Source of the DNA: Vicugna vicugna
Lineage: Eukaryota
Direction of reading: 5' to 3'
Assembly: GCA_013265495.1 (NCBI GenBank)
Contig: MU057700.1
Span: forward strand, 1 to 64,000
Length of the DNA stretch: 64,000 nt
This document shows, one piece after another, positions 1 through 33,152 of the stretch. The notes beneath the pieces were generated by a model. It did no database searches, was not told the origin of the DNA, and was given only the letters and a program-made list of their open reading frames with translations. Within the stretch, counting starts at the first letter, position 1; each line of letters starts with the position of its first letter. A program made the position numbers and the translations under genes.

Positions 1-2128
1 GCTGAGGGCATATAGACCTGGATGGTCCCAGGACTTGGGGCAGAGATGCTTTTCAGGACCTTGGAGAGAACCGCAGAGCTTCTGATGAGCCAGCACAGCA
101 AGGCTGCAGGTGGGGGAGCAGGGCTGCCCCTGCGTGGAGACAGCACTCTCCGTGCCTGGCTCCCGGGAGAAGAGGGGAATGGGCTTCCTACTCGGCGAGC
201 GAGGGAAAGGCAAAGTTGTGTGCATGTGTGTGGCTCAATTTTAGGAGAGAGACCGGAGTGGGTTTGAAGTAAAAGAAAGCAAGTCTGTGAGGAGGGACTC
301 TGGCAGGAGGCAGGGAGAGAGGCAGCGGGAACTGGAGGTGGGTTTCTGGTGGAGGAGCTGCTCACGGGGGAGAGGAAGACCACTGACTTCTCCAAGGCAG
401 GGGCTCAAGGCCGGGACCAAGAGAGCTTTGGTGAAGCTCATGGAAGGCCTCCCTGCTCTTCTCTGGAGGGAAGAAATCTTCCATGAAACAGGGTCCAGGA
501 GAGAGAGGGGAGATCAGAGGAGTTGAAAACATGTGAAATCCTGTGTGGGGAGTGGGCGTACGCACTAAGAAGACATCTCAAAATCAACCATGGCTCTAGC
601 TAATCAACCTAACACTTCCAGCTCACAAAGGACCCATAGAATCTTACTAGAAGCTGGGCTCATTTTGAGATTGGGCCTTCCCAGAAGTGTCCCATGGCCT
701 AGGAGTTTAGGAGTGTGTGGCAGAGGGCTGTGGTAAGCCCTGGTGTGCAGGGTGAGTCCAGAAGTGGCCAGTGGAGCCTGATAAGAGGTGTGACTCGTGG
801 GTCTGCAGAGAAGGTGGGGCCAGGAATGGTGCTTTCTGAGCCTTGCCCACTAGGGGGAGCAGGATGGAGATGGCACAGGCCACACAGGGCTTGCTCTGGG
901 TGCTGGAGAATCCAGACAGCACAAGGACTAGGAAGCCCCAGGGGTGATGGCTTGATAAGTGAGAACTGGGAAGAGGTGAATGGGCTCTCAGGAGTTGAGG
1001 GGGTATTTTAAGAGCAGAAGGGATTGCTGAGGGTGCCAGGAGCCAGGGGTCCCACTATGAGCCAAGCTGGGCGTTATACTGGAGGGGCAGCACCAGGGAG
1101 AGCCCACACAGGCAAGAACTTCACCTGGCATCGTGGGTCCTGGGCAGGAGGCTGGGGAGGGCTGAGAGTTCCAGCGTATTTCGGGGTGCGATTGAGAAAA
1201 CGGAAATCTTCCCAAAAGTGCCAAGACAGGTGTCTGGCTAGACTAGGCAAGTCCTGGTTTGGCCTCCACTGGCCATTGTTACCCACCCTCTCCTCATGGG
1301 CTGGGCTGGGAAGGCCTGGGCTCTCATATCTCACCGCACATCAGAATCTCTTCTGCCCACAGTGAGAAGCCAGCCTTCAGGATCCAGATCCTCCTTGGAC
1401 TTCAAATCCAGTCACACTGGATTAGCCTGAGCTAGCCCCACCCCCTCAAGTGTCCCAGCCCACCCCTTGCCGCCGTCTGCTTTAACAGGCCGACAGCCCA
1501 TCCGTCAGGCCTCTTTTCCAGCCTATTGTCTTTCTCCAGGGGCACATGAAGTCCAGGAGCCCAGCACTCTAACGAAGCGGCTCAGCTACTTCCTTTAGCA
1601 CGGATCCCAAGGGGAAGTGGCTTGGAGGGACCAAGTGGACCGCAGGGGTCTGTGGCAGGGGCTGATGGGAAGGGGTGGGAGTGTCAGCAGGACGACCTTT
1701 TCCAAACTCAGCCTTGTCTATTGTAGGACCATGTGCCCTCACCAGAGATGTGTGAGCACTGGATTCCCAGGTGAATGGCCCTGGGTGACCCCTCTCACCC
1801 CAGACAGTCAAGGCAGGGCCCTTGCTGAGTCCCTGAAGTCACCTTCCTATGACAGAGATGAGCACATTGGAAGCCAGACCCTTCCCGTGGGGCCAGCAAA
1901 GCAGCATCCCCCACACTCACCAAACAGGGGGCAGAGGAGTCCTGAGCAAGGCCTGTCATGTCAGAGACGTGGGCAGGAAGGTCATGATGGGGTGACTTGT
2001 GTCCTTTCCTGTCCAGGCAGGTCTGCACGGGGCAGAACGGCGCCAGGACAGGTCTGTTTTTTGAGTTTTTTTTTTAATGTAGCAATCAACTCTCATTCCT
2101 CCTCTACCCTTTTTTCTGATTTTTTCAG

Positions 2129-2210
2129 ACAAGAAATAAAAGCTGCTCTTAAAAGACTTCAGAACATAGTACCTGCAGGACCTAGAAACATGCATGAAGG
2201 ATTGAAAAAG
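2129..2210 (+). pseudogene. ANTXRL: ANTXR-like exon 4 equivalent (82 nt): (R)QEIKAALKRLQNIVPAGPRNMHEGLKK
   Basis: tttttcag acceptor, gtacag donor; aligns to ANTXR1 [28 protein letters not shown]; 82-nt size as recalled for ANTXR1. Confidence 0.9.
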
Positions 2211-2315
2211 GTACAGACTCCACAGCTCTGAGAACTTATTCTGCTTTATCAAGTTCTTAGAGTCTTTTGGGCTCATCTCACTGCCCTCCACCCACATTCC
2301 TTCATTTTGTTGCAG

Positions 2316-2349
2316 GCGAATGAGCAGATGGAACAAACTAACTCAGGAG
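2316..2349 (+). pseudogene. ANTXRL: ANTXR-like exon 5 equivalent (34 nt): ANEQMEQTNSG
   Basis: ttgttgcag acceptor, gtaagt donor; aligns to ANTXR1 ASEQIYYENRQG; 34-nt micro-exon. Confidence 0.9.
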
Positions 2350-3264
2350 GTAAGTCGCCTGCTGCCGTCACTGCGCTCGGGTGGGACAGAGCCAGGCCCG
2401 GGCCGCAGCAGGGGCTGGCGCATACCCACCGCGGCCAGTTCCTAGCGCTGCCTCTTGGAGCGAGGTCCTCGCCCTCTCTGTGCGGCCGCTTCCTCCTCTG
2501 CGCAGTGAGGATGAAGCCACCCCCAGGGAGGTTTCTGAGAACCAGACGGTTCTTATTAGATATGAGGTTCTTGACCTGCAGTTGGGCTGCACGAGACAGA
2601 AAAGGGAAAAGCCAGGGGCTGCGAGCAGACAGGGATCAGCTGAGGGAACAAAGGCCTTGATGTCCCCTGGCTGCCCACACCTGTGTCCACCCAGTTCCGG
2701 CTCCACCTCCTTTCCCTTCAGCTTCTGCCCTCGGGTTGACTCTCATCCTGTGACTGAGTCTCCACCAGTGGGAAAGGCTGTGCTCGGCCCTGAACCCTCA
2801 GCACCTGGACTGCAGGGTATGTCTCTTGTCAGGACAGATGCATGGCCTGCAGGGAGAGGCAGGGAGCTGGGCGGGGGCTGCTGTCCAAGCGCCTTGACCT
2901 CGAGTCCTGAACGGCAGGCCCCATAGAGCCCGCAGGAAAGGCAGCAGGTGCCACCCAGGCCGGAGCCCAGCTCCTGCCTTTGCTCACCTAAAAGGCTGGT
3001 CCTCGTCCAGGGAGGTTGCTGGAGCGGCCTTTCAGAGCCAAGGCTGTGCCATCTGGTCGTAGTGAGGGTTCACCAGGAAGATCTGAGCTGCGCTCTCAGC
3101 CTACTCATCAGTCACGTGGGTCCTGGGCCTCAGCCCCTTCTCCCTCCACGTGCTCTGGATGGCGGGCAGTCAGGTCAAAGTGGCCTCTCCCCAGGGAGGG
3201 AGCAGTGCTGTGGGCCTGGCAGCCAGTGCCTTGCTGACCAGACTGCTGCCCGCTCCTTCTGCAG

Positions 3265-3336
3265 ACAGGAAGGCTGCCAGCCTGTTTTCACTGTGGACCA
3301 CTCCTGCCAACACCTTTAAGGGAACCTAAGAGCCAG
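3265..3336 (+). pseudogene. ANTXRL: ANTXR-like exon 6 equivalent, frameshifted (72 nt vs ~80 expected): DRKAASL...GPLLPTPLREPKSQ
   Basis: ctgcag acceptor, gtgagt donor; RKAAS resembles RTAS; ~8-nt deletion across the IALTDG motif, with TAA reached in the entry frame. Confidence 0.75.
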
Positions 3337-3414
3337 GTGAGTCCCATCTGTCATCACCAGCTTTGTGCTCCGTGTGCTTGTGTGTTTTATACTCAAAGCC
3401 TTTCTTTCTCTTAG

Positions 3415-3483
3415 GCTAACAGGGCTCAGAATATGAAGGCCAAGGCTTACCGCCTGGGTGTAAAAGACTATCAGAGAGACCAG
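3415..3483 (+). pseudogene. ANTXRL: ANTXR-like exon 7 equivalent (69 nt): ANRAQNMKAKAYRLGVKDYQRDQ; donor reads GG
   Basis: ctcttag acceptor; aligns to ANTXR1 [23 protein letters not shown]; followed by ggaatt instead of gt. Confidence 0.9.
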
Positions 3484-3799
3484 GGAATTCAGAACGGGTA
3501 AACCAGTTGGGGAAAGCTTTCAAAGGCAGCTGTCCCAGGGTCACCCCGAGGATGGCCCTCTGCCCTCCCCAGTGCTCAGACAGCAGACAGCCCCTGCAGA
3601 TGAGCAACGAGTGTTGTGTAGACCTACAGACGGAGGTGCAGGCGGGGGCTTCCTGGTCCCTAACGATGGGCTGCTGGCAGATGCCAGGCGGTGGCCCTTG
3701 GGGTCTAACATGGCAGGAGGCAGGAGCGTGTCTCCTGGGATGGGACCTGCTGGGTCCTCAACCCCTGGCTGTGGGCCAAGCCACCTCCTCTCCCTGTAG

Positions 3800-3877
3800 C
3801 TGATTCAAATGGTAGAAGGAAAGAAACAGCTGCACAAGGTGCCCCATCCCAGGGACGGTGACGGCTTTCTTACACCG
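3800..3877 (+). pseudogene. ANTXRL: ANTXR-like exon 8 equivalent (78 nt): LIQMVEGKKQLHKVPHPRDGDGFLTP; GC donor
   Basis: ccctgtag acceptor, gcgagt donor, phase 0/0, correct position between exons 7 and 9; peptide divergent from ANTXR1 [27 protein letters not shown]. Confidence 0.65.
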
Positions 3878-3975
3878 GCGAGTGTGGGCTAAGTGTGAGG
3901 ACGGGGTCGGGTGGTTTCTCAGCATGGTCACACCCGTCACTCTCCCTGACCCTGCCACCCCTCCCTGTGTCCCGG

Positions 3976-4032
3976 CTGGTGGGAAATTCCTGTAAGGAAG
4001 GTATGGCTGGAGATACTACGCCTGTGTGGGAG
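3976..4032 (+). pseudogene. ANTXRL: ANTXR-like exon 9 equivalent, frameshifted (57 nt vs ~61): LVGNSCKEGMAGD..YACVG; acceptor reads GG
   Basis: SC.E and C(V/A)G|gtgagg match ANTXR1 [20 protein letters not shown]; acceptor is cccgg rather than cag. Confidence 0.75.
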
Positions 4033-4064
4033 GTGAGGGCTGGGTCATTGTTTTGGACTAAGTG

Positions 4065-4320
4065 GTGTTTGTCTGTGTGTATGTGAATGTGCCTCAGTGT
4101 GTCTGTTTAAGTGCAGTGTGAGTGTGGTGTGTGTGTGTTTGGTGTGTTTGTGTGGGGTATTGTGTTCCGAATGGAGCGAGTATGTACGGTGTGTGCGTGT
4201 GTGTGAATGTGGTGTCTGAGTGTGTGGTGTGTGTGTGCCTGGGTGTTTTTACAGAAGTGTGTCAGATATGTGACTGTGCCCTGAGTATATAATTAAGTGT
4301 GTGCTTATGTGAGCTGGGTC
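4065..4320. repeat. Degenerate (TG)n low-complexity tract
   Basis: Repeated gtgt/gtgtgt units. Confidence 0.8.
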
Positions 4321-4364
4321 TGCCAGGGGCTGTGGTATGAATATGTGCGTAATTGCCTTTTCTT

Positions 4365-4870
4365 CCATTTTTATTGAGACACGCTTGACATACAGCTCTG
4401 TATAAATTTAAGGTAAACCATGCAATGACTTGACATACATTTATTGGGAAATAATTACCCCTGTAAGTTTACTTTTTAAAACTCAAAAACAAAAGTTTAA
4501 TTAAAAACTGAGGAAAGATAGTTTTTAAACCCTGAACATAACACTAGCAAATGAAATCCAATAACATATAAAAAGGACAATGCATTAAGACTAATTAGGG
4601 GTCACTCTAGAAATGCAAGTCTGATTCAATATTTGAAATATCAGTATAATTTATCACATCAGCCAATGGAGAAGGGAAATATGACTGTCTCAACAGATGA
4701 AGAAAAGAACTGGACTCAGTTCGGTTACAGCATCATACTAGGAACAAAGGCATCACACGAATACTCACAGCCAGCTTTATACCCAGCGGCTAGATGGGGA
4801 AGGCCTCTCCCTGAGGTCTGGAACTGGACAAGGCTGCCCTCTCTTCCCCAGGAGGGTCCCCGCATCAGTG
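4365..4870. mobile_element. Old L1 fragments (antisense 3' end, then sense ORF2 remnant)
   Basis: tttttattgaga...ataaatttaagg 3'-end motif; actagcaaatgaaatccaataacatataaaaagg ORF2-like sequence. Confidence 0.6.
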
Positions 4871-6349
4871 CGGTGAGTACCTTATGCAGGTACTTTTCTG
4901 ACAGGAGCTCTCTTTGCAGTGAGCACTGTGTGTGCCGGCTCATGTGTCCACATCGCTGGCGTTTGTGCAGCTGAGGCTGGGGGACGAGCACACGCTTCCA
5001 CAGGGACCAGCACTCAGCCAGATGCAGCTGGACGCGGACCCGGGAGCTGGGCCTGCCCCGTGCTCCGAACTGCAGGGCTGCAGTGCACGAGGCCGGGGTC
5101 AGACGGAGCGGTGTCCGTTCCTGAGCTCTGCTGCCCACGGGCACGAACCCGGGCAAATTGCTGACTGTCTGTGAGCTCCACTTCCGTCCCCTAGTGGTAG
5201 AAATAGCAGGACGCACTGTCAGATGTGCAGTGAGACATAGTCCTGTGGAGTCCACAGTGACCCTCACAGGATCTAGAAGCCGGGGCCCCTCACCACCGGG
5301 AGCTGGGGCTCAGATTCCATCACTGACCACAGCTTCCACCCCCACCCCCATGTCCGCCCAGGTTGAGGGGGAAGCGGTTTAAGAACATCCAGGGGGAAGG
5401 GGCTCCAGCTGAGCCCACGGTTGCTGGCAGCTGTCAGACTCCTCCTGTCTTCTGACCCTGGGACCTGCAGGGTGGGGTGTGGACGTGGGCCCTAGACCCC
5501 ACACACGGAGGGTCCTCCCCTGCTTCTCTGGTGCCACGTGCCAGCCGTGCAGTGGCCTGACAGCTGCAGGTCTCTACTTGTGTTCCCAGGACACACATGG
5601 GCCTGTCAAACCCCAGAGAGGATGCCAGTTGACACCTATGCCCTGGGGTGGCCCAGCTGAGGTGACAGGTGCCCGCTGCACCCCCCACCCCCACCTGTGT
5701 GGCCCAGCAGCGCTGCTCTGACCTTTAAAACTGCTGTCATCTTGTTGAAAGCTGCCGCACAGCATGACAGTCCTTGGAGGAAAATCTCAGGGCAGGAGCC
5801 TGGACCCCAGTAAAGTTGAAGATGTTCATCAGGCTGCTATTCTGAATAAGTCAGTGGGCCGGGTGTGAGGAGGCCGGAAGGGGGGTGAGCAGGAGGCACT
5901 CCGCCTCCTCAGACTCTCAGGCTCCCTCCTGGGCTGGGCAGAGGCCTCTGCTGGCCTCCCTGCCTCCAGGCCTGTACTCCAGCCCATCCTGTGCCCAGGG
6001 CCCGAGGGACTGAGAAAGCCACTTCCTTAACCCAGCCTGACTGGGGAGGCTCAGGTCCCCTCGCCAGACAGCCGGGCCCACCAAGGTCCAGCCTCTGCTC
6101 TAAGCCCACCAGCTGCAGAGACAGGGCAGTGCAGGGCATGGGGGACTAGGCTTCCTGAAAAACCTTCCTCAGCGCTACAGGGTCCAGCCCACCCAGCCTT
6201 TGAGACTTTACCCTCAGAGCACCTCAATCCTGAAGCCTTTCCTGATCAGCTGGCCCCTCTGGCCTCCTACAGTCCTCGTCTGTTCCTCTTAGTAGTCACT
6301 TGTCACCCAGTATGTACCATGACTTCTGCTTGGCTGAGTCCACAGCTTG

Positions 6350-8110
6350 ATTTTTTTTTTAATTTTTATCATTCAGTTCATTGTTTTTCTTCCAGCCTTT
6401 CATGACAACTCCAAGCCTACAGCAAAGGAGAAATGCTTGTACAGTGGACACCCCATCTCTGACACCTGGATTTGTAGTTAATATCTGACCACATTTCCTT
6501 TATCATTTATTTATCTAACTCTTTCTTGTATTTTTGTCTTCATCAAACCACCTCATTTTTTGATGCATTTCAAAGTAAATTACAGGCTGCTGCCTCCCCA
6601 GACCCTTCATTCTGCATATCTTTAATTGGGAAACAATTTTTGTTGAGTTCTCTTTTTTAAAAGCAGCAAACTCAAGTGTATCATTTGATGAGTTCTGACA
6701 GGACACCTGTGTAACCCCAAACCCCGTGAAGACTCAGAACAGCACGGTTGTCCCCAAAAGTCCCCTTGGGAACCTTCCCAGGCAACCCCTGCCCCGCCCC
6801 CTGGAGGCAGCTACTGTCTGATTTCTTCCTCCACGGGCTAGTCTGCTCTTTAGAGCATCTGCTCAGTGACTCATGTGGGATGAATGGCGTGTGTGGCTTT
6901 GCACACCTGGCACCGTGGCTTGGAGATTCGTCTCTGCTGTGTGTTCACTAGATCTGGCTGCGCTTGGGGCTTTCCCCCCGGGGGTGGGCTGGAGGCAGTA
7001 ACCTGGTAGTTCCTTTCCCTGTCTGTGACGAGGCCAAGGGTGTGTCTGCAAGAAGCCCAGCAGGTGGCGCACAGCGGCGGTGGCCACAGTAGGACACGGT
7101 GCAGAGCAGGGCTTCCCTCTGAGGTCCAGTGTCCAGGTCTGCATCGTGGCCAGAGACCCTCTGTGGGGGAGGGAGGGGCAGGAGGGCCTGAAGGAGGGAG
7201 GTGGGACACACTGTGCAGAGACCCTCCTGCAACCAGCCTGGGTGACAGCTGTCCCTCCATTACGATAAGGCTCTCCCATGTTTTATCTACTGCCTCCAGA
7301 GATAACAACCACATATCATTAATCATATACATAAATACTGATCTAAATATACTTTACAAGGATATTTTTACATAATGGGATTATGCAGTTCATGATAGTT
7401 TCCAACCATCTCCAATTAATCATATAATACTGATCTAAATATACTTTACAAGGATATTTTTACATAATGGGATTATGCAGTTCATGATAGTTTCCAACCA
7501 TCTCCACAGTATTCCATTGTATGGATGGGCCAATTTACTTCATTAGTCTTCCTTGATCAATATTCAGATTGTTCCTAGTAAGTCTACAAGCAGCTTTGTG
7601 TGGGGACCATCCTGACACTTACCTCTCTGTGAGCTTGGGAAAGGAATTCCGTGGGGTCAAGAGCAGAAGCAGAATTGTTGCGTTAAGGACACACCTAGGT
7701 TAAAGTTGGTCAGTGTCCCATCTCTCTGTTTTCTTCCAGGAGTTTTAACATTTCCCGTCTTATATTAGTTCTTTAACCTGTTTGGGGGTTATTTTTATAG
7801 GTGGTGCGAGAAAATGTTCCAATTTCATCCGTTTACATGGACTGTCTAGTTTTGCCAACAGCGCTTATTGAAGAGATTCTCTTTTCCTCTTTGTATACTC
7901 TTGCCTCCATTGTCATAAATTAATTTCCCATATGAGCATGGGATTATTTGGGGATCTCTGTTTTGTCCCGTTGACCTCTGTGTCTGTGCTTGTGCAAGTG
8001 CCATACTGCTTTGATTCCTGTCGCTTTGTAGTGTGGTCTGAAATAAGGAGCAAGGTAACTCCAGCTTCGTTCTTTCTCGAGATTGTTCTGACTCTTTGAG
8101 GTCAAGGATA
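6350..8110 (-). mobile_element. Old antisense L1 fragments (3' UTR and ORF2), interrupted
   Basis: Typical antisense L1 text, e.g. agtattccattgtatggat, tagttttgccaacagcgcttattgaagaga, ccatactgctttgattcctg. Confidence 0.65.
7318..7506. repeat. Tandem duplication, 97 + 92 bp
   Basis: 7318-7414 and 7415-7506 are identical apart from a 5-nt indel. Confidence 0.9.
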
Positions 8111-9294
8111 TTTGCAGACTTTTAAACATAGACTGTACTATTTTGTAAACCTAAAAACTCCTATCAGCAGGCTGACTTCAGCCCACAGGACAAGAATCTA
8201 TTCGCTCCAAAGCAGAGAATTTGCAAACTCTGCCTTGATCTGATGGAAGCTTCAGGAAGACCTGGAGTAGGAGGAATCAGGACTGCCAGGGCCAAGGTTG
8301 TGCTGGCATTTCTGAGGGATGTTCCTTAAATTAATCAACCTTAGACAATTAATTAGCCTTGACAAGAAGGCAGGGGTGGAGGCTAATGACCTTGGACTTG
8401 CAGCAGAAGGACCTACGTGTTATCCTGGCCAGCTCCCCAGGGGTCAGGCCCACCAGCTGCCCTTTCTGGATCCCTTCATATTTGTTTCCATTTCTGAGAA
8501 GCACCAGTGGAGACCTAAAAGCCTGGGGAGGGACTATGGCCCAGAGAAATTGCACCTTAGCATAACAGTGCCTCCCACCCTAGCGAAATGAAGTGCTTGG
8601 TGAATCCTTGGGGGGTGAAGGAGGCACATGAAGGTCAGGGAAAGGGAGAGGAGGAGCAGTCATTGCAGACTCAGAACAACAGCTAGCATGGGATTTCACC
8701 TTCCGTGGGGACTCTCCCGTGCAGGGTTCTCGCCTCCTGGCTTATATCACCCAAGTCCCAGCCTTGCTCTTAGGGTTTCCACCCTGTCACAGGCACATGG
8801 AAACTCTGTGAAGGGGGGAGGAACAGACTCCCCAAGTGTCAGAAAGTCCCACAGGCACCTAGGAACGTGTGCTGCCCTCAGACAAGAGTCAGGGCTGTCT
8901 TCAGCCAGCATTGTCTTGGTTCCACTGCCATTTATGCAAGAAAGGGCCAGGTGGAGAGAACTGCCTGCACCCGTAGAGAAGACCTTGGTGGTTCTGGGTT
9001 AATAACCACGGCGGGGTTTGCCCAGGGAGAGGGGATGAGACTGAGTGCCTTTAATAAGCTCGATGGGTAATATGGTTGGTGACAGGCCCCCTGAGAACTC
9101 AAAGCCCAAACCCACTGCCTCTGAGAGAACCATCAGTGACAACAGATGAGCTCAGGGTGCAAACAGATGTTGGTTCAGACACAGCTGCTTTCTCAGAGGA
9201 GTCCCCTCAGAATTCAGTTGTCATAATTTTGAGGTCATAGGGAAGACAGCGCTCAGCCCCTCCTAACACAGACCTCTGGCTGTTGCCCTTGCAG

Positions 9295-9390
9295 AACCCT
9301 ACCAACTTGCATTTTTTGCATATGGCCTTATTCAAAGCAAAATTCCAGAATAAGCTTGCAGATATAAGTTGGACAAAACCACAATCTACA
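9295..9390 (+). pseudogene. ANTXRL: ANTXR-like exon 10 equivalent (96 nt): EPYQLAFFAYGLIQSKIPE*ACRYKLDKTTIY
   Basis: cttgcag acceptor, gtaagt donor, phase 1/1; resembles ANTXRL DPYHVVIHGNGF...VICRFIFNESTII; in-frame TAA at 9351-9353. Confidence 0.8.
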
Positions 9391-10772
9391 GTAAGTACCC
9401 ACCTTTGTGCCTCCAGGTGACATACTTCCCACACAACACCGCATCCCCTCCGCCAGCTGAGATTTCAGAGCCCCTGCTGACCACTCACTGCGGACACTGT
9501 GAGGACAGAGGCGGCGTGGACAAGTGGAAGGAGGGTCTGGCTGGGGAGCCCGGCCACCTTTTCCTTCATGTGCAAAACCAAGGAGTAAGCAATCTCTCAG
9601 CACATTAAGAGTATCCTGGAGCATGGCTTACACCTTTCAAGGCTGGGTTTGAGGTACTCAGAGCTGAATTCCCGCCAATACCTTTCTCAGCTCTGCCTTC
9701 CCTTGACAGACAAGGACACGAATCGCACGAGTCTGCTGGTGGGGTGTGGAGGCAGCCACAGGGCCCTGAGTCTGTGTCAGGTGCGCTGGTAGCTTTCCCA
9801 GGAAGGTGTGGTCACCTTGGATTGAGAGAGGATGCCAACTGCCGGGCCTGGGCCCTGGAATCCTAGCTCAGGCCTACATTACATGTGTCACCTTGACCTA
9901 ATGAGTGTTCTGGGTCAGCCTCTACTATCTGCACTATAAAATGGGGCCAATATGGTAGGTGCACTAACTACACTATCATGCATGTAAAGCTACTGTTTGG
10001 AAATACTCAGGCGTCAGGTGTCCCTCCGCGATGGGTGCGTGGCCTGAGGAAGCCCGTGGCTGGGCAGCAGACGTGCCCTCGGCGCTGAGGTGGGGGTGAC
10101 CCCTCACAGGGTGCCTGGGGACAGTGGGACTTTCTGCTTCCCCCTCAGCCCTCCCAGTAAGCCCCCTGATACAGTCATTTCATGTAATTAGGTCATGTTC
10201 AAAGACTTCTCATTCCAGGGCCACCTGGTCAACCCAGAGCAACGCCTCTCGCCCAGCACACTCTGGGCAATCTCTCCTTCTTCCACGGGCACGTAGCATG
10301 GGCAGGGCTCTGCCACTGCCACACTCCCACCCCACACGGTGTGTAGATGGCCTCAGGGCGTTAGATGCCCCTTGGTTTATACTTTCTCAGGAGTGGTTAG
10401 GGACTGAGTAACTCAACTGTGTGGAGAGCTGGTGTTATTGAGCACCTACTACATCAGATAATGCGCTAAGTGTGTTGCTATCCCAATTAATTCTCAAAAG
10501 ACCTATTGCTATTCCTCTGAAGGGAGCTGGTGCAGCAAGAACTGGAAAGTAGACACAGGCGATCTGATTGGCTGGCCTGGGCCTTCTGCCTTGCTGACGA
10601 CAGTCCTGGAGAAATTGTAGATAGAAGCTATCCCCTAGGAAATGCGATCAGATACACCCTCTGTGGTCCGTGGCTCTGCAGCTCTCCCAGCCTGGGCGTC
10701 ACTAGTGTTCCTCCCCGAGCTGGACCAGCACCGAGTCTCACATCCCACAGTCCTGAGCTCCTCTGCCGCCCC

Positions 10773-10895
10773 CCTGCTGCACCTGCAGGGAGGGCTGGGC
10801 CGGGGCCGCTTACTGCCGGGAGCCCATGCCCGCCTGCTGCACCTGCCGGGGGCTGGCCGGGAGGGCTGGGCCGGGCCGCTTACTGCCGGGAGCCC
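10773..10895. repeat. GC-rich imperfect two-copy tandem repeat (~55-60 bp unit)
   Basis: cctgctgcacctgc...gggagggctgggccggg(g)ccgcttactgccgggagccc occurs twice. Confidence 0.8.
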
Positions 10896-11555
10896 GGACG
10901 CACCGGTGAGGGCTGACTGGGCTGTTTTAGATTACACTTTACTCTAATTAAAACATTTGAGAAAATACTTTAATAAATATAGAGAAACATAAAGAAAAAT
11001 ATTGAAATCAATATGTGAATAAGTTTTATCTTGTCTATCTTTAATGTAAAATGTTTTTTAAGAAGTCTAAAATACGGCAGCAGAAGTATTCGGTTTAACC
11101 AGTTAATACCGGTGAGAAAGCTCCTCCCCCGTCAGCCCTGCTTTTCTGGCCGCTCAGCAGCGAGCCGCCCGCCCGCAGCTCCTCCTCGCTGCCCCGTGAG
11201 CGCTGTGGGCAGTTCACCGCATTGCCCCGGGGCTGTTTTCACAGGCATCCCGGCCGTCAAGCCCCTCAGACGCAGATGCCTCCCTCACCCAAGCTCGGTG
11301 ATTGGCTTCATTATCTGCCCCCGTGAAAGGATGAAACAGTTCGGAAGTTCATAGCTAACCAGACAAGTGAGTCATGGCAAAAAGCGGGTCACCTGGAAGT
11401 GAACCCTCCGTAGGGAACAGGCCTGACCTGTGGCCACAGTCGGGGGTGTGAGGGGACTGAGGGCTCAGGAGAGAGGAGGCTCCACAGCTGCCAGCTGTGA
11501 GCTGTCTGAGCCCCGTGAGTGCCGCCTCCCAGCTCTGCCAGACAACAGAGCGCAA

Positions 11556-11597
11556 ACACACACGCGCGCGCGCGCACACACACACACACACACACGC
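11556..11597. repeat. (CA)n(CG)6(CA)n perfect purine/pyrimidine alternation, Z-DNA-prone
   Basis: 42 nt of uninterrupted alternation. Confidence 0.85.
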
Positions 11598-11772
11598 CCC
11601 GCCCCCTCCTCAGGCTCCCCTGTGTCAGTAAATGGAGAGAGAGGCCCGGGGAGGGGGGCGGACTGGCACCCCTGAGGGCTGGGAGGCCGGGGCTGCGGGG
11701 ACGGGAGGGGAGGGGGGAGGAGGAAGGGGTGGGGGTGCTCTCCTGTCTTCATATGACGTCAGGGCTGCTGGT
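11596..11772. promoter_or_regulatory. Candidate cis-regulatory element: GC boxes, G-tract cluster and palindromic CRE TGACGTCA (11754-11761)
   Basis: Motifs read directly from sequence; function not shown. Confidence 0.4.
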
Positions 11773-12049
11773 GAGACTCCCAGGGGGGCCTCTACCAGGG
11801 ACCAGCAGCCTTAGTCTGCCTGCCTCCCCCTTGGCCCTGTAGGGAGGGGCCGACTCGCCTGTGATAACTGAGGAGCCTGAGGCTCGGGGAGGTGGAGCCT
11901 GTTGGTTACAAACCCTGAGGCAAGGGACACCCAGCTTGACACCCCCAAAGCCCATGTTCGGCTGAGCAGGGTCCCCTCCTGTCCTCCTGGCTGAGCCAGG
12001 GCCCCACAGGCCCCTTCCAGCCTGTATTAATATCTCTTTAACATCCTAG

Positions 12050-12088
12050 ATCGTCAAGGCTCCACCACCAACCCAGAAATTTGGAAAG
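12050..12088 (+). pseudogene. ANTXRL: ANTXR-like juxtamembrane exon 14 equivalent (39 nt): IVKAPPPTQKFGK
   Basis: catcctag acceptor, gtaagc donor; matches ANTXRL TVKEPPPVQKPEK and ANTXR1 IIKEVPPPP. Confidence 0.85.
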
Positions 12089-13224
12089 GTAAGCGATGTG
12101 TTTGGTCCTGATGTTGTCAGCCTGCCTGATGCACACACTGACCCGCACAGAGAGGCCTCCTGCCGCCGATGGGGGTACGTCCCCCCCACACCCCCAGCTC
12201 CCACCTACCTGGGCAGGGAGAGCTGGCAGCAGGAGGATGGTGACAGAGAGGCACAGAGGGACACCAGGGAGGACATAGGACTCACCAATATCACTCAGAC
12301 AACAGACTTCCCATATTCCCAACATGCCCTGAACCAGACCCTTAAAACTGAATCAGCAACATGGTGTAGCCTGTTTTAGGAACTGTTATGAGACTTGAAA
12401 TAAATGGGCTTTTTGTCAATTACCAAGGGACTGTTTGTAGAATGGTCCTTCCCCAGGACTCCAGAGCATCCTTTTTGGAAAAGGATCCTCAGGTTTCAGG
12501 GACCTGGTCCCCCTTCTCCAGACTCTGAGTCCGTTGGGCTCCATTCCCTTGGTCTCCATCTCCGTCTGTTGTCAGCATGAGGGTCTTGGCTGGGGGTGGC
12601 CTTGAGGGACATGGGGCCGAGGAGAGGAGACGGAGGAGGGCATTGAGCTGTGAAGGGGGTGCAGCCCAGGTGAGCACAGGGACCAAGGGGCAGGGGAGCA
12701 GCTGTGACTGACCAGGGAGGGTGCCCAAACAGGGCCCATAAGAGGCAGTTGGAGCAGGGGCATGGTGTCCCAAGAAAGGGGACCTGGGCCTGCAACCTGG
12801 TGGGAAACAGGGTCACTGCCTGGGCTGGCATCTGCGCTGGATGCAGTGTGGCCTGGGAATGCTGGATCAGCCAGAGTCAGGTGAGTACCCCCCGTCCCTG
12901 CTCATGACTCGCCTCCCACAGCCTCCATCATGTGACACAGCCCCAGGCCCAGCTTCTCCAACAAGGGCCGCTCCGGGAACTAAGGGGACAGGATAGTTTG
13001 TTGGCCTTTGGGGAAGAGCCATCTTTGTGAACCAGAAGGGGTTGATGTGTTTTTCACAGAGAGGACACTCTCTTACTGTGCCCGGTGCTGCTCATCTGTC
13101 CTTGATTCTCTACCAAACATTCCCTGAGTGACCAGAACTTGACAGGTGCTGGGGCAACAGATGTCATGTGTCTGCAGCCAGGAGCTGCCAGACAAGGAAG
13201 CAGACAATCATTTTTTCTTTCTAG

Positions 13225-13302
13225 AAACCACATGCCATACAACCATGTACCAAGGTGATCGTTTCCCATAGTGAGAGTCAGGAGGACAGGACAACAATGG
13301 AG
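13225..13302 (+). pseudogene. ANTXRL: ANTXR-like cytoplasmic exon 15 equivalent (78 nt): KPHAIQPCTKVIVSHSESQEDRTTME
   Basis: ttttttctttctag acceptor, gtgaga donor; C.TVI and terminal ME resemble ANTXRL NTCPTVII...MRRIE and ANTXR1 WPTV...IKRME. Confidence 0.75.
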
Positions 13303-15924
13303 GTGAGAAGGGCCCTTAGGGAGGGAGGGATCACCCCACCAGGCTGGGGGCTGGGAGGAGAGGGGAGCCACTTTCTGCAGCAGAGGCCTGGACCAAAGTC
13401 CTGGCTGGGAGAGATGAGCTTTATGGGCCTGGACCTTGGTCACTTGGGTCCCAGCACCACGGTCTCCCCCTTGGACCGGGCCCAGGATTCTGGATGCTGG
13501 CCGCAGTAGCTTGGGTTTCACTGGCCAATGACCAGATGAGTGAAAACAAACTAAGTTACAAACAACCTCACGCAGGTCAGGAACAAATATTTCTGAGCCA
13601 TGATCTCACCACCATTAAGCTACCCAGAAGTGCCCCAGCTCCTGCTGTCCTTGCGGAAGTCTGCTCAGTGAGGGAGGGAGAGCGCTCACTGCGTTGTCCT
13701 TGTGGCCCCTGAGATGGGTGACCAGATCCTCAAGGAGGAGGGGGCCTAAAGACACTTCCTTCCTTGCGGGGTGCTGAGCCCATCCTGGTGACTGTGATCC
13801 CAGCCCGGCGGGGGCAAGAGACGGCAGGGATGGAGAAGGCTCCGGGTGGTCCATGTGAGGAAGAAAAAATCCACCATCTCTGCCCAGCTTTGCCCCCTCA
13901 AACCCCTGCACTGCCCTCCTGCACACCCACCAAGGGCCCCCCACGCCCTCCCCGGCCCCTGTCCTGCCTCTGTCTGTGGTCTTATCCACCACTGCTCCCT
14001 CCTGGGACTGTCAATAGCAGCTAGAGGGCCAGCCCCACGTCTCCCCTGATGGTCAGTGTTGGGCACAGAGAAGCCACAGCAGCCCTTCCTGAGAGGGAGG
14101 AAGCCGCCTGCCTGGGTTTGTTCCTGCTCACAGGGCCGACCCCCATCCCCGACCCCCCAGGTCCACTTTCTTGTCTGCTCTTGGTCCTCACCTTTCTCAC
14201 TTGCCCCCAGTGTCAGGACCCTGTCCCCTGAGCAGGGGTGGGTCCTCTTCCCTGCCTTCTCCCTCCCTGCGCCCCAAATGCAGGCCGTCTTCCCCCTTCT
14301 TCCAGCTCCTGCCCAGGTGCCCATGAGCACCACATACTTCCCTCTCAGGCCGTCTCCTGGCTACTGCATATCTCCTCCAACTCTGCACTGTTTTCTCCTA
14401 AAAGTAGCCTCGACTTCTCCTACCCCAAAAGCACTGATTTGTTCCAGAATCCAAAACAATCTATGACTGACGGTGACCACACGTGGAGCCCATATCAATG
14501 ACCAGATCATATGGAAATTAATCAAGCAATTTTTCAGTGGGTGAAAGTAAACATACACACCCATTGATTTTATTAATATGTCTATGAAGTACACAAAAAT
14601 CTTAAAATACAACCTATTATACATTACAGGACACTAAAACAGGATCTGTTTTCTTTAAACTGTTGTGGTTGGAATTACTGAGGCTGCAATGCTTATGTTT
14701 TCTATTAATGAATACTGGAAATTTTGAAGTTGAACAAATTCACAGAAACTCTGAAAAAGAGAATGAATGCTTTAATGTACAAGGTTTTTTTTAATCTGTC
14801 CTAACCTGATTGCAATTTCATAACCTTTTGATAAGAAACTTGTTTTAACTGTACATAGGAGACATCTTGGGAACCAAGAAACTAAGAAACTCTTGTGTCT
14901 TAATCAGAAACAAAGAGGTGATCTGTAACTATTAAATCACCCTCTCAGGCTCCACACATTTTATAAATGAGGCTGAGAGAGATTAACCTTGTATACCCTC
15001 CCTGCACTACCACTGTGTGATCTAAGTTCAGAATAAAAAGAGAATAAAAAGATCTAGATATTAAATACATGGCTACACATCATACATCAGTTCAAGATCT
15101 GGAAAAAGTAAGTGGAGAACAAAGAAATGTGGAATGTTTGGGAAGTGCAATAAACCTTCCTCAGCTCTGGAGACCCCTCCCCCAGGCTAAGCACCCACGG
15201 AGAAGGGACGTTAGAAGGGACGTGTGCGGCCCGCCCCTCACTCACCACTCAGTGCAGCACACCTGTCTGCTGAAACCTGGTCCTGACCTTCCACTTGACA
15301 AAGCTGTGACCTCTGAAGGCATGCTCACTTAGGGCAGGGAGATCAACAATTGCTCCTGGCCTTGGCAATCTAGAATCTGTTTGAGGGGAAGGGGTCTCTT
15401 CCATTTCCGCTCTGAAGCTCTGGCGAGAGGTCTGAGGGGGTTCTCAGGGGTGCTTTCTTCTCAGGTGGGTTTCTGGTTGATGAACTTCCCTCCTATCACT
15501 CCAGAATTGCTTTGTTCCCAGAGAAATGGGACTCGGGTATACAGGACAAAATAATTTAGTTGGAATCTTCAAGAGACAGGGCCCCCAACCTGACTCCAGA
15601 AGGTTGCTCCCCAGGCTACACCTTCTATAAACTGAGCACACAGGCTGGGAAGTTTAGGAGAAGCCCATACTCTGGACCGTGGACTTTGAGCCTAGGGCTC
15701 CTGAGAGTAGCAGGAAGGGACCTGTGCCACTTTGAAGCTGTGAAGGACCTAGCACTGGCTTCCTATTCGCAACAACTGATTTAGACGGCATATCCTCGCT
15801 GCTAGCTAAGTGAACGTGAGTAAATCATTCATCTTTCCAGGCTGGTTTTCTTATTTGCTAAAACAGGTGTTGGTGAAAATTCAAGAGACGCCAAATGACA
15901 GCAACAGCTGCTTAATCATTCATC

Positions 15925-16505
15925 ACGAGCCCCTAGGCTCAACGCTTCACACGTGTCGTCACCTGGAGCGCAGAGAAGCGGGCTGAAGAGCCCGGTCTCC
16001 CTCGGAGAGCGCGGCTGAGAGCGGAGCTGGGCCGCTTTGGGAGGCCCAGGACACTTGCCCAGGGCCGCAGTCCTCCGGACGGCCGGTGGCTGAGCCGCAG
16101 AGTCTGGGCGCTGTGGTCGCGCTCCCGCCCGCCTTTCCCTGCGCGGGGCCCTCAAGCCTCCCCGGAGCCCTTCCCGCACGGGCTGGCGTCGGCCGCGCTC
16201 CAACCTCCATGCACCCCGGCAGGCGCGCGGTTCCACGCAGAGCTCGGGACAGACTGCAACCAACCGACGGACACCGCCAAGCGCCAGGCGCCCGCCACGG
16301 AGCGCACATGCGCACAGGGGTGGGAGGCGTGGCCGCGCGCAACTTCCCATCAGCCCCAGCGCGGTGTGTACGCTCCTCCGCGGCGGGTGGGGCCCGCGCG
16401 CAGGGCAGAGCACATAGCGGTGCCCGCGCAGGAGACCAGGTGGATGCTCGGGAAGACGCGCGGGGTGACTTTAACGCTGGACACGGAGACCTGCGACCCG
16501 CTGGG
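15925..16505. promoter_or_regulatory. CpG island / promoter-like element with no assignable gene
   Basis: Dense CpG and high GC; NRF1-like GCGCACATGCGCA at 16302-16314. Confidence 0.75.
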
Positions 16506-18186
16506 AATGAAAAACACCCGAACAGCAAGGTTTCTCCCAGGACCAGAAAATAATGATGAATGTTTTTTATTATCCTACTTTTTAGGAGACAAGCTTTCAA
16601 GAATTAGTAATATACAAAGATTTAAGGAAAACCTGAAAATACACACAAATCAAAAGAAAGAAACAATAAATAGAGCTTCACATCCTGCTCCCTGAGATTT
16701 GTGGGCTTAACCATGAAAGGTACAACCTGATAGTTTGCAGAAATGCGATCGTATATGATAGGTTTTATCACTAACCTTGCAGAAAACATTTTCATGTAAA
16801 ATATAACCCCAATTATTTTTTCCCAACAACAATAATAATAATAAAGTTCTTTCACTTAATAGCATCAAAAGTTGTACAAAATACTTATTATTCCAGTAAT
16901 AAATGAAAACCTGTAAAGACAGTGACATTTTGTGGAGTATGACATTTAAAAATTTTCAATAGGTACTGGTTTGTTTTACTTTCCCAAAAAGAAAACTCAA
17001 TCTATAACAATATGCCAAACAGAATCTCAACAACTTTCTGTGACTTTTTTCTTTTTTCTTTTCCTTTTTTATTGTCTTACTGAACAGGACATTGTAACCT
17101 TACTCCTATTTCCAAAAAATTAGAATTGGGGGGGGGAACAGTAATGCTTAACATATATTAAAAGTCATCTGCTGTTATAATTTTTTTCAGTTTGGAATTG
17201 ACACCAAAGAAAAAGAATATTTAAGAATTTATTACACAATTTAGCAAAGAAATAATTGAGTATTCAGTTAATCACACTGGACAAATAGACACTTGAGATT
17301 AAACTTGCTTTGTAAACCAGTTCACCAATTGCAATAAGTGCATTTCAAAAATATGAAATAAAGATTAACATTTTACATGCAAGTTATTATATTTTTCTTA
17401 CAATTTTTTAAACAGTGTTTTCCCTAGCTCTGGCCACTCAAACAGCCTAGACAACCTCCCAGTAGCAATGAGCACAGTTAATACTCAGAAATCATCCATG
17501 GAAAGTAGACAGTGCTCTTTGGAAAAGTGATTGATTGTAAGTCAGGCCAAGAAAAGTACAAGATAAAATTAGGAAAACTTACAGTGCTAGAGAATAAAGA
17601 AGCCCTCACACATCAATGGGGTAAAATACACGTAGGAGCAAGCTTGAGGAGGTACCCACTAGCAAAATTATGAGGTCAATTAAAACACCTAGAATAATAT
17701 TTTTTTTTAATGAGGAGGGACACTGCCACATCTGAGAAGATAGAGTAGATGTACTTCTATTCCACCTCCTAAATACTGCTGGAAACCCTGGACATTATAT
17801 ATAAAACAAATAAAAGAAGCCTCTGACAGATGCAGAGAAGGTAAACAGCTAGGGACCCCTGGAACCAAGGAGAAAAATAGTGATCAGTTCTTCTTGCTTC
17901 AGATGTTCCAAATTTGGAGCTAAAGGAAATGACAACCTGGAAATGCCAAGGGGTACAGGTAACAAATGCCCCAAAACAAGCCTGCTGTCTCTAGCCAAAG
18001 AACCAGGAAAGGGGAAGCCTAGGAAGATGGAAAGCTTTTAGTCAACAATCACTATACCCCAGACAAATATCACAGAAAGAACTGTGGCTCCAATCCCACT
18101 CACACCAGTGAAGAGTGAGCAGGAAGCCTCCACACTCACCAGTCTGTAATGATGTGCCTCAATCCCCTATACCCCCCTTAACTCCC

Positions 18187-18543
18187 CACCACATACACAC
18201 ACAAAGAGGTGGTGTCAGAAAGACTGAGAAGGGAAATAGGACATTTGTCTTCATCCAGTAGTAATGAAGGTATCCCTACCATGATTCAGTGGAGAGCATT
18301 TGGGGAACCAGAACTCCCACCCTCCCTCAGGAGCCCAACTCAGGTTTCAAAGAAGAGGTGGGAAACATAATACACCACATACACACACAAAGAGGTGGTG
18401 TCAAAAAGACTGAGAAGGGAAATAGGACATTTGTTTTCATCCAGTAGTAATGAAGGTATCCCTACCATGATTCAGTGGAGAGCATTTGGGGAACCAGAAC
18501 TCCCACCCTCCCTCAGGAGCCCAACTCAGGTTTCAAAGAAGAG
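18187..18543. repeat. Near-perfect direct duplication, 2 x 171 bp with 15-bp spacer
   Basis: 18187-18357 vs 18373-18543, two mismatches seen. Confidence 0.9.
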
Positions 18544-20459
18544 CCAGTGAGAAACCTAAATGGAATTCTACCTCCAACTTTTAATAAAAAAGCAATACCC
18601 TCCAACTCCCCCACTGGAGCAGTATGAGAGAAAGCCAGCTAAAACAGAAGATTTACATAAGATGCAGAGTGTCTTAAGGTAATATGGAAATACCCAAGTT
18701 CCGACTAAAAAATCACTCATAACAAGAAAAAGGAAGCTCTCAAGCTGAATGGAAAAAAAAAAGATAATCAGCGGAAGACTAGAAGAAAGAATATTAAAGT
18801 TATCTGACAAAGACATCACAGCAACCATGATAAAATGTTTCAACACGCAATTTCAAACACATTTGACCAAATAAAAAGCTGAAAATCTCAGCAAAAAAAT
18901 AGGAGATACACAGAACTAGCAAGTGGAAATTTTAGAAATGAAATAACCAAAATTAAAAACTAAGTGGATGGGCTTTAAAAAAGAGAAAGAAAGAATGATG
19001 GGGACAAAGGAAAGGATAGTGAACTTCAAGAAAGGCAGGTGATAAAAACAAAAAAAACCAGAAACAAAATGAACAAATATAAAATATAAACTAAAAGGCA
19101 GACTTAAGCCTTAATATATCAATAATAACACTAAATCTTTATGGTCTAAATATGCCAATTAAAAGACAAAGATTGGCAGCGTGGCTTTTTGAAATGACCC
19201 AGCTATATACTGTCTAAAAGAAATTATATAGGCAGGTTGGCAGTAAATGTGACAACCAATGGACTAATTCCTCAAAAAAAAATCATAACTCACCAAGTGT
19301 GAAATAAATAATGTGAATAGCTTTATAACAATTAAAGAAGTTGGATTCATAATTTTAAAAACTCCCCAAAAGAGAAATTTCCAGATGTTCTTACTGGAGA
19401 AATCTACCAAACACTTAATGGAGAATTAACACCAATTCTACAGAATATCTTTTAGAAAATAGAAGAGGAAGGAACGTTTCCCAATTTATTTGATGAGTTT
19501 AGTATTCCTCTGATATCAAAGCCACACAAAGACATTGCTAAAAAAAGAAAACTACAGACCAATATTTCTCATGAATATAGGTACAAAACTCCTTGACAAA
19601 ATATAAGAAAATATAATTCAGTAATATGTAAAGAGGGTTAAATACATCATGGGATTTATTCCAGGAAGAAATGTTTCAATATTCAATAGAATCCACCATA
19701 TTAACAGGCTAAAGAAGAAACATCACATGATGATATCAGTTGACGCAAAAAGAAAAAAAATCACAAAATTCAACAACTACACAAGATTAAAAAATCCCAG
19801 AAATGCAGGAGTAGAGGGGAACAACATGATAAATAACATACACAAAACCCTCCAACTACCATTATACGTTACCATTATACTGGTGACAGACTGAAAATCA
19901 GGAAAAAGGCAAGAATGTCACTCTCATCACTCTTATTCAACATACTGCTGGAAGTTTTAGCCAGTGCAATAGACAAGTGAATAAAACAAAGGCATATGAA
20001 TCAGAAAGACACTATACTCCCTATTTTCAGATCACGTGATTGTCTATATAGAACATCTCATGGAATATGTATTTTTTAAAGTTTGCAAGATACAAGATAA
20101 ACATGCAAATGTATCAATGGCATTTCTGTATACTAACAACAAACACACAGACATCAAAATTGAAACTACAACACCAATGCTCAAAAAATTTAAATGCTTA
20201 GGTGTAAATCTAACAAAACATATACAGGACTTGTACGCAGAAAATTACAAAAGGCTAATGAAAGAAATCAAAGAAGATCTAAACAAATGGAGAGAGACAA
20301 TATGTTCATGGATTGGAAGATTTATTATAGTAAAGACAATTCTCCCCAAAAATGTAATTACTATTTAAAAATCCCAGCACAATTTTTTGTTTATATAGAC
20401 AAGATTATTCTAAAATGTATATGGAAAGACAGAAGAGCTAAAGAAAGAAGAATTTACCT

Positions 20460-28454: not shown

Positions 28455-29592
<1,138 letters not shown>

Positions 29593-31084: not shown

Positions 31085-31465
31085 CAGAGAAATACCATAT
31101 GATATCAGTTATATGTGGAATCTGAAAAAAAAAAAAGACAAATGAATTTACTTACAAAACAGAAACAGACTCAGACATAGAAAATAAACTTATGGTTAAC
31201 AGGTGGGGGAAGGAGGTGGGAAGGGATAAATTGGGAGTTTGAGATTTGCAGATATTAACTAATATATATAAAATAGATAGATAATAAGTTCATACAGTAT
31301 ACCACAGGGAACTATATTCAATACCTTGCAGTAATCTGTGGTGAAAATGAATATGAAAACGAATATATGTATGTTCATGTATGACTGAAGCATTGTGCTG
31401 TACACCACAAATTGACACAAAATTGTAAACTGACTCTACTGCAATAAAAATATATATTAAAAAAA
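31085..31465 (+). mobile_element. Younger L1 3' end
   Basis: gggaagggataaattgggagtttgagatttgcaga; AATAAA and A tail. Confidence 0.85.
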
Positions 31466-32994: not shown

Positions 32995-33087
32995 GAGGGG
33001 TGGGAATAGCTCAGTAGTAGAGGGCACACTTAGCATGTACGAGGTCCTGGATTCAATCCCCAGTACCTCCATTTAAAAAAAAAAAAA
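32995..33087 (+). mobile_element. tRNA SINE with perfect 16-bp TSD
   Basis: agaacatgtgctcctt at 32979-32994 and 33088-33103; pure poly(A). Confidence 0.95.
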
Positions 33088-33152
33088 AGAACATGTGCTC
33101 CTTCGCTCAAACCCTTCCAATAATTCTGTTTCAATTAGAATTAAGGAGTTTT

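What the first reader, a model, noticed from the sequence alone, without database searches (positions are those of the whole stretch)
2129..13302. Hidden anthrax-toxin-receptor-like gene relic beside a ZNF487-like gene, possibly a distinct ANTXRL paralog
Seen: nine small exons with splice signals spell a VWA/Ig/proline-rich-tail protein in ANTXR order (82, 34, 72, 69, 78, 57, 96, 39 and 78 nt). No supplied ORF reveals it. Knowledge: human ANTXRL lies in the ANXA8/NPY4R region of 10q11.22, whereas ZNF487 lies by HNRNPF/ZNF239. Inference: the peptides are quite divergent (e.g. LIQMVEGKKQLHKVPHPRDGDGFLTP; a short exon 15 without the long poly-Pro run), so this may be a separate paralog lineage that is intact in other mammals and dead here.
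Basis: partly seen in the sequence, partly recalled or inferred. Interest (0 to 1): 0.75.

Follow-up and report, generated by a model that had tools for sequence, protein, structure and literature searches.

The report
Broken copy of MIDAS-less ANTXRL paralog
This is a dead, relocated duplicate of a second anthrax-toxin-receptor-like gene lineage, shared by bats, carnivores, horses and even-toed mammals, that has lost a conserved metal-binding residue; an intact sister copy survives elsewhere in the same camelid genome.

Summary
The nine exons are real but cannot make a receptor: two frameshifts, a stop, damaged splice sites, and the Ig-end/transmembrane exons deleted. They belong to an ANTXRL clade that has lost the last MIDAS aspartate (16 of 16 scorable members; kept in 17 of 18 other ANTXRL rows). 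Database members come from badger, meerkat, snow leopard, bat, horse, pig, whales and ruminants. The clade nests inside laurasiatherian ANTXRL, so it is a co-ortholog of human ANTXRL, not an ancient paralog (AU p=0.034). It is not dead in camelids: contig C2222 has an open sister copy, and near-identical RNA is spliced. The home locus is RBP3-paralog-ANTXRL-annexin. The HNRNPF/RET position is one of ten duplicated fragments in this assembly, and the window copy is a gene-conversion mosaic. Every canonical, MIDAS-type copy I could read here is broken. The relic is ordinary; the clade is worth a study.

The parts
2129..2210 (+). exon 4 (VWA; MIDAS threonine position is Arg)
   Evidence: AG/GT intact; 68 of 82 nt equal to C2222
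2316..2349 (+). exon 5 (VWA); canonical-type sequence inside a conversion tract
   Evidence: near-identical to canonical-type copies C3107b and C11979; only 19 of 34 nt equal to C2222
3265..3336 (+). exon 6 (VWA); 8 nt shorter than in C2222, frameshift, the T-A-G motif is within the lost bases
   Evidence: 72 against 80 nt; same in C6842
3415..3483 (+). exon 7 (VWA); donor reads GG
   Evidence: GT in C2222 and C12171; GG also in C6842 and C11979
3800..3877 (+). exon 8 (VWA end); GC donor; clade-specific 78-nt form
3976..4032 (+). exon 9 (VWA-Ig linker, LVGNSC signature); acceptor reads GG, 4 nt shorter, frameshift
   Evidence: 57 against 61 nt
9295..9390 (+). exon 10 (Ig domain start) with in-frame TAA
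11630..11650 (.). junction of a deletion of about 4.8 kb that removed exons 11-13 (rest of Ig domain, stalk, transmembrane helix); 2-3 nt microhomology, no long repeat
12050..12088 (+). exon 14 (cytoplasmic, juxtamembrane)
13225..13302 (+). exon 15 (cytoplasmic); 3 nt shorter than in C2222; exons 16-17 not in the window
2201..3100 (.). gene-conversion tract of canonical-type sequence (86 canonical-like against 6 paralog-like informative sites); 3201-3500 and 3801-4100 are paralog-like
1..20000 (.). segmental duplicon carrying the relic; 1-15036 matches C6842, 13439-20000 is repeated inverted at C677:734912-741300; exons 1-3 would lie beyond the contig start
28400..34465 (-). neighbour, not part of the relic: broken KRAB zinc-finger gene (KRAB-A exon with TAG, KRAB-B exon, last exon with stops and an interspersed-repeat insert)

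Best explanation
The window holds an unprocessed pseudogene fragment that makes no receptor. History: (1) in an early laurasiatherian, ANTXRL duplicated in tandem at the RBP3-ANXA8 locus, and the new copy lost the last MIDAS aspartate (T-D-G became T-A-G) and remodelled the VWA end and the Ig domain [tree and residues shown; tandem origin inferred from gene order]. (2) In artiodactyls this copy multiplied again into at least three subtypes; the window belongs to the one that also lost the MIDAS threonine (whale, cattle, camelid) [shown by tree]. (3) In camelids, segmental duplications spread pieces of the cluster to about ten places, among them both ends of the HNRNPF-RET block in inverted orientation [copies shown; restriction to camelids inferred]. 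(4) Copies exchanged sequence by gene conversion, which made the window copy a mosaic, and it then gathered frameshifts, a stop, splice-site losses and a deletion of the transmembrane exons [shown]. The living members (C2222 here) are type I membrane proteins with a VWA fold that most likely binds its partner without a MIDAS metal ion, an Ig domain, often a threonine-rich stalk, and a cysteine-rich tail; most likely a germ-cell or reproductive-tract surface adhesion/recognition protein [fold predicted; metal independence and role inferred].
For: Lesions. Window + C2222 form a pair at 100/98 inside the T-A-G clade at 100/100; laurasiatherian canonical rows plus this clade are set apart from primate/rodent ANTXRL and ANTXR1/2 at 98/96 (41 rows chosen by me); same shape in a quick tree of 112 of 162 rows. 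Holding the 18 other ANTXRL rows together costs 30.3 lnL, p-AU 0.034. Taxa of the clade. MIDAS columns; residue roles from PMC1762376 (passages). Fold kept: AlphaFold model of the cattle member matches the ANTXR2 ectodomain (Foldseek E 5e-30) and its VWA domain at rmsd 1.6-1.9 A. Home locus: RBP3 at C3107:259-262k, paralog-type fragment 286-306k, canonical copy 308-329k, annexin from 340k; a yak model fuses canonical ANTXRL to an annexin, a dolphin model fuses paralog exons to canonical exons, a sheep model fuses three paralogs; neighbouring accessions in banteng, ibex, reindeer, buffalo. Duplicates: 6 contigs hold the VWA exons, 10 hold the e14-e15 region. Mosaic: 288 informative sites fall in 74 runs, permutation p 1e-4. 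Sister copy spliced at all 5 introns from e4 to e9 in 3 of 4 runs laid, 2 studies, two runs on record as reproductive system.
Against: The AU test is modest, the group was named after the tree was seen, and branches are long. Gene order in other mammals rests on accession adjacency and fused models, not on their genomes; an HNRNPF-linked copy in another species was not excluded directly. The RNA runs differ from C2222 at a few letters (one exon-3 codon matches the Camelus ferus protein P0014), so they come from another camelid genome or allele; contigs show no level or strand. Exon 16 was not found in C2222 (best score 21; a 57-base gap lies there), though its absence keeps the frame. Several clade members keep D-x-S-x-S and the threonine, so weak metal binding is possible for those. 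The assembly is broken at most copies, and some short contigs (C6842, C12171) could be alleles or haplotigs. Transcription of the window copy itself was not tested.
Confidence: 0.85

Rival explanations
1. An ancient fourth ANTXR paralog, older than the primate-laurasiatherian split, with its own HNRNPF-ZNF487 synteny, lost in humans and dead in camelids.
For: The clade is sharply distinct (100/100), only 32-40% identical to canonical ANTXRL over VWA+Ig, and the window does lie on the HNRNPF-RET contig.
Against: Nested inside laurasiatherian ANTXRL, AU p 0.034; introns still align with canonical copies at 70-94%; home position beside canonical ANTXRL and annexin; open, spliced sister in camelids.
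Confidence: 0.07
2. Simply the decayed 1:1 ortholog of canonical ANTXRL, whose odd peptides come from pseudogene drift.
For: Window 2201-3100, exon 5 included, is canonical-type.
Against: Exons 6-10 carry clade signatures found in open genes of whales, cattle and goat (LVGNSC, EPYQL/ESYQL, 78-nt exon 8); the window groups with C2222 at 100/98; the canonical copy lies on C3107 beside annexin.
Confidence: 0.02
3. The window copy has a function of its own, as a non-coding transcript, a conversion donor, or a short secreted VWA fragment from exons 1-5.
For: Exons 4 and 5 keep frame and splice sites; patches of 97-100% identity with C6842 show recent exchange; unspliced window-type sequence turned up in run X4, which may be DNA.
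Against: The first frameshift falls before the VWA fold is complete; the lesions are shared with C6842; no spliced window-type joint appeared, though reads were laid on C2222 and not on the window.
Confidence: 0.06

Closest known systems
Human ANTXRL and ANTXRLP1 (10q11.22)
   Same: Same exon order and domain plan; duplication-prone, copy-number-variable locus with a duplicated pseudogene (PMC11534156, passages); higher expression in testis (10.1101/339226, passages).
   Different: The orangutan ANTXRL keeps all five MIDAS residues and lies outside the T-A-G clade; 32% identity to the camelid sister copy. ANTXRLP1 is a 92%-similar primate duplicate, independent of this one.
RefSeq/GenBank 'anthrax toxin receptor-like' models of artiodactyls, e.g. 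XP_057387521 (minke whale), XP_061261580 and XP_061261584 (banteng), EPY78509 (Camelus ferus)
   Same: Same clade; the whale protein is 70% identical to the C2222 model, the C. ferus exon 1 96%. The genes are therefore already annotated.
   Different: They carry the same generic name as canonical ANTXRL, or 'zonadhesin-like' or 'hypothetical'; no paper found treats them as a clade. The window copy is broken, mosaic and relocated.
ANTXR1/TEM8 and ANTXR2/CMG2
   Same: VWA + Ig + TM plan; predicted fold matches.
   Different: They have the full MIDAS (D50, S52, S54, T118, D148 in ANTXR2; PMC1762376); about 31-32% identity; separate loci in this genome (C10460, C4557).
Naked mole-rat Antxrl/Antxrl3 expansion
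   Same: ANTXRL copies multiply inside a structurally unstable region (10.64898/2026.10.14.758906, section 8 read).
   Different: Rodent, independent expansion; the section read says nothing on MIDAS state.

Membership tests
ANTXR family (ANTXR1/2/L) | VWA domain followed by Anth_Ig domain, sequence homology | tested here: met
   exon pieces alone gave no Pfam hit
ANTXR family (ANTXR1/2/L) | Conserved exon sizes and phases over VWA-Ig | tested here: met
   82/34/80/69/78/61/96 in C2222; window equal but for two deletions
ANTXR family (ANTXR1/2/L) | Open frame with signal peptide and transmembrane helix | tested here: not met
   window: frameshifts, TAA, e11-13 deleted; met by the sister copy C2222
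MIDAS-type I-domain receptor (ANTXR1/2, canonical ANTXRL) | D-x-S-x-S ... T ... D | tested here: not met
   last Asp absent in 16 of 16 scorable clade rows (13 Ala, 2 Thr, 1 Ser); Thr absent in 6 of 6 rows of the window's subtype and the pig row; window has Arg at the Thr place and has lost the Asp-place bases
MIDAS-type I-domain receptor (ANTXR1/2, canonical ANTXRL) | Divalent-metal-dependent ligand binding | not testable with these tools
   inferred from residues only
1:1 ortholog of human ANTXRL | Groups with canonical ANTXRL and lies beside ANXA8 | tested here: not met
   groups with the T-A-G clade; lies with HNRNPF/RET; the annexin-linked canonical copy is on C3107
Ancient separate paralog with HNRNPF synteny | Clade outside all ANTXRL | tested here: not met
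   p-AU 0.034; group named after seeing the tree
Ancient separate paralog with HNRNPF synteny | Intact ortholog beside HNRNPF-ZNF487 in other mammals | tested here: inconclusive
   no other mammal genome on hand; accession adjacency and fused models point to the ANXA8 cluster
Laurasiatherian T-A-G ANTXRL clade (defined here) | Tree membership and LVGNSC / YQL signatures | tested here: met
Unprocessed pseudogene in a segmental duplication | Introns kept, disabling lesions, long flanking homology to other loci | tested here: met

The most novel reading that the evidence does not exclude
Laurasiatherian mammals have an unnamed branch of ANTXRL genes that has given up the metal-ion adhesion site, keeps the VWA-Ig fold, often sits on a mucin-like stalk, and turns over fast in reproductive tissue. 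In camelids this metal-free form may have replaced the canonical gene outright (every canonical-type copy read here is broken), while the gene cluster acted as a core duplicon at the ends of a rearranged HNRNPF-RET block.
Probability: 0.45. Interest if true: 0.65.

Novelty: new variant of a known kind. Interest (0 to 1): 0.45.

Why it matters
The relic itself is genomic debris. What it points to matters more: annotation lumps at least four kinds of gene under 'anthrax toxin receptor-like', and most of them lack the residue set by which ANTXR1/2 bind ligands. A conserved, fold-preserving loss of MIDAS across bats, carnivores, horses and artiodactyls suggests a shift to metal-independent recognition, and gives a defined set of genes for work on the unknown function of ANTXRL, probably in reproduction. 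If camelids truly lack an intact canonical copy, they are a natural knockout of it. The copies also mark probable rearrangement ends in the camelid region that corresponds to human 10q11, a region that is duplication-prone in humans as well.

Tried and rejected
Pfam scan of single exons: 0 of 7 pieces matched, too short. Atlas feature search of the unnamed clade member P0015 gave only generic ANTXR/VWA clusters at 0.90 or below; that of the zinc-finger frame gave generic C2H2 clusters and no ZNF487 name. A chemokine-family search for CXCL12 listed no hit on the ANTXRL-bearing contigs among 46 matches, so the neighbours of C2222 stay unknown. GPRIN2-type hit lies on another contig (C10826): uninformative. 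Assembly collapse as the cause of the e11-e13 loss: rejected, no long repeat at the junction ends (best local score 27-28). The tandem repeat of e11-e13 in C2222 (4933 bases, 99.96% identical, either side of a gap) is treated as a probable assembly artefact. The careful 112-row tree did not finish; the quick tree was used as a screen (50 of 162 rows dropped for covering under 190 profile columns), then a careful 41-row tree. Run X4 showed no joints. Paper searches: 0 papers for ANTXRL+MIDAS (45), 'anthrax toxin receptor-like'+camel (46), ANTXRL+ANTXR1+ANTXR2 (76), and receptor+gene family+Laurasiatheria (80); listings showed no title or abstract start on the family's evolution. The library lacks most subscription journals, and bioRxiv supplements were not available, so prior description is not excluded. 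Upstream parts of the copies on C3122, C2263, C11785 and parts of C11979 and C12171 were not read.
Full report
Setting. The window is the first 64 kb of contig C677 of a 2.03-Gb mammalian assembly.

Observation. The nine exons are there with the sizes given. A whale ANTXRL-like protein hits five of them in order at E 4e-7 to 7e-6. Set against the open copy on C2222, the window copy has: 8 nt missing from exon 6 and 4 nt from exon 9 (frameshifts), a GG donor at exon 7, a GC donor at exon 8, a GG acceptor at exon 9, a TAA in exon 10, a deletion of about 4.8 kb that removes exons 11-13 with the transmembrane helix, and no exons 16-17. The deletion joint shows 2-3 nt of microhomology and no long repeat, so it is not an assembly collapse. 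Exons 1-3 would lie before the contig start. It is an unprocessed pseudogene fragment.

Copies in this genome. Window 2000-4000 matches five other contigs at 85-94%; the exon 14-15 region is on ten contigs. Two protein types occur: a canonical type like hippo, bovid and horse ANTXRL, and a divergent type (window, C6842, C2222, part of C3107, part of C12171). C2222 reads 520 codons over exons 1-15 without a stop, with AG/GT at all internal sites, followed by an open last exon; exon 16 was not found. RNA contigs near-identical to its exons join all five introns between exons 4 and 9 at GT..AG, with loose ends matching exons 3 and 10, in 3 of 4 runs laid; two are on record as reproductive system, and the three come from two studies. 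They differ slightly from C2222, so they show that the gene is spliced in a camelid, not in this animal. The window copy is a mosaic: of 288 sites that tell the two types apart, 2201-3100 has 86 canonical-like and 6 divergent-like, whereas 3201-3500 and 3801-4100 are mostly divergent-like; 74 runs, permutation p 1e-4. Identity to C6842 is 79-93% over 1-3200, 85-96% beyond 11600, and 91-100% (mostly 97-100%) in between, and the two share the exon 6, 7, 9 and 10 lesions.

Relatives elsewhere. Searching with the C2222 exon 1 and then with the unnamed protein P0015 gave full-length divergent-type proteins of banteng, cattle, buffalo, goat, sheep, deer, reindeer and baleen whales. A search of 1.84 billion representatives gave 239 proteins at E up to 0.001, of which the best 150 were listed; ten were looked up, naming badger, meerkat, snow leopard, a phyllostomid bat, horse, pig and whale in the clade, and orangutan, dog and a rodent outside it. 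In the careful tree of 41 rows the window pairs with C2222 (100/98), inside a whale-cattle-camelid subtype (98/94), inside a 17-row clade (100/100); that clade and the laurasiatherian canonical rows are set apart from primate and rodent ANTXRL and from ANTXR1/2 (98/96). The ANTXR1/2 labels of the four outgroup rows rest on motif likeness. Forcing the other 18 ANTXRL rows into one clade is rejected at p-AU 0.034, with the caveats that I named the group after seeing the tree and that branches are long. The clade is thus best read as a laurasiatherian duplicate and co-ortholog of human ANTXRL.

What defines the clade. ANTXR2 binds its metal with D50, S52, S54, T118 and D148 (PMC1762376, passages). 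The last aspartate is missing in 16 of 16 scorable clade rows and present in 17 of 18 other ANTXRL rows and 4 of 4 ANTXR1/2 rows; two distant unnamed rows have Ser. The window's subtype and the pig row also lack the threonine (6 of 6), while the ruminant, horse and badger members mostly keep D-x-S-x-S and Thr. The fold survives: the model of the banteng member is confident over VWA and Ig and matches ANTXR2 best, VWA rmsd 1.6-1.9 A. Loss of metal-dependent binding is inferred, not shown.

Synteny. But C3107 carries RBP3, a divergent-type fragment, the canonical copy and an annexin in that order, matching the human ANTXRL-ANXA8 region (PMC11534156, passages; RBP3 position recalled). In other artiodactyls the types have neighbouring accessions or locus tags, and gene models fuse canonical ANTXRL to an annexin, divergent to canonical exons, or three paralogs together. 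The window's flank recurs inverted at the far end of C677. The HNRNPF position is therefore most simply a camelid segmental duplication; this was not checked in other genomes.

Canonical copies. All four canonical-type pieces read are broken, and canonical exons 6-9 were found on two contigs only. The assembly is fragmented at these loci and three further contigs were not read upstream, so loss of the canonical gene is a lead, not a result.

How it works. The window element makes no receptor; at most it serves as a conversion partner. The living clade members are most likely metal-independent surface adhesion or recognition proteins of reproductive tissue: human ANTXRL is higher in testis (10.1101/339226, passages), the camelid RNA comes partly from reproductive samples, and rapid copy turnover is also reported for the naked mole-rat (10.64898/2026.10.14.758906, section 8). 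This step is inference.

Novelty. The proteins are in databases under a generic name. Ten paper searches showed no description of the clade, its MIDAS loss or the camelid expansion; the library is incomplete. Verdict: observation confirmed, interpretation partly supported; new variant of a known kind; interest 0.45.

Noticed in passing
G000:C3107:308372-328600 (L040-L042), C12171:34015-34146 (L006), C11979:13658-15651 (L021), C6816:12112602-12112733 (L027): All canonical-type ANTXRL copies read are broken: C3107 has a stop in exon 10 and lost donors at exons 8, 9 and 11; C12171 shares the stop; C11979 has a GG donor at exon 7; C6816 has a CT donor at exon 10 and no exons 1-9 in 27 kb upstream. 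A DNA search found canonical-type exons 6-9 only on C3107 and C11979.
   Followed up: partly
G000:C3107:340809-345290, C12171:809-5273, C3122:336308-342406, C10552:824-9538: The annexin next to ANTXRL (ANXA8 by recalled position) is itself present in about three copies in this assembly.
   Followed up: no
G000:C677:660463-660708 and 734912-741300: An orphan paralog-type exon 1 and an inverted 90-92% copy of window 13.4-20 kb at the far end of the same contig, so that HNRNPF and RET are enclosed by inverted duplicons; C6842 may continue that end.
   Followed up: partly
window 28400-34465 (-): KRAB zinc-finger relic with a stop in KRAB-A, degenerate fingers and an interspersed-repeat insert; CpG-rich stretches at about 16.0, 39.5 and 50.5 kb.
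   Followed up: partly
L036 (C2222:33864-34262); proteins P0034, P0049: Long threonine-rich, mucin-like stalk exon in the camelid, whale and sheep members, over 800 residues in the sheep model; some whale isoforms are named zonadhesin-like.
   Followed up: no
protein P0121 (Scotinomys teguina): A rodent ANTXRL with T-A-G that groups with other non-clade rows: an independent loss of the same aspartate. Two unnamed distant rows (P0142, P0153) have Ser there.
   Followed up: partly
L034:7289-8224: Run X2 shows extra joints into an internal exon at about 7855-8049 of intron 5 of the C2222 copy.
   Followed up: no
window 7311-7503: A near-perfect tandem repeat of about 100 bases in intron 9 (seen; C6842 aligns twice there).
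   Followed up: no
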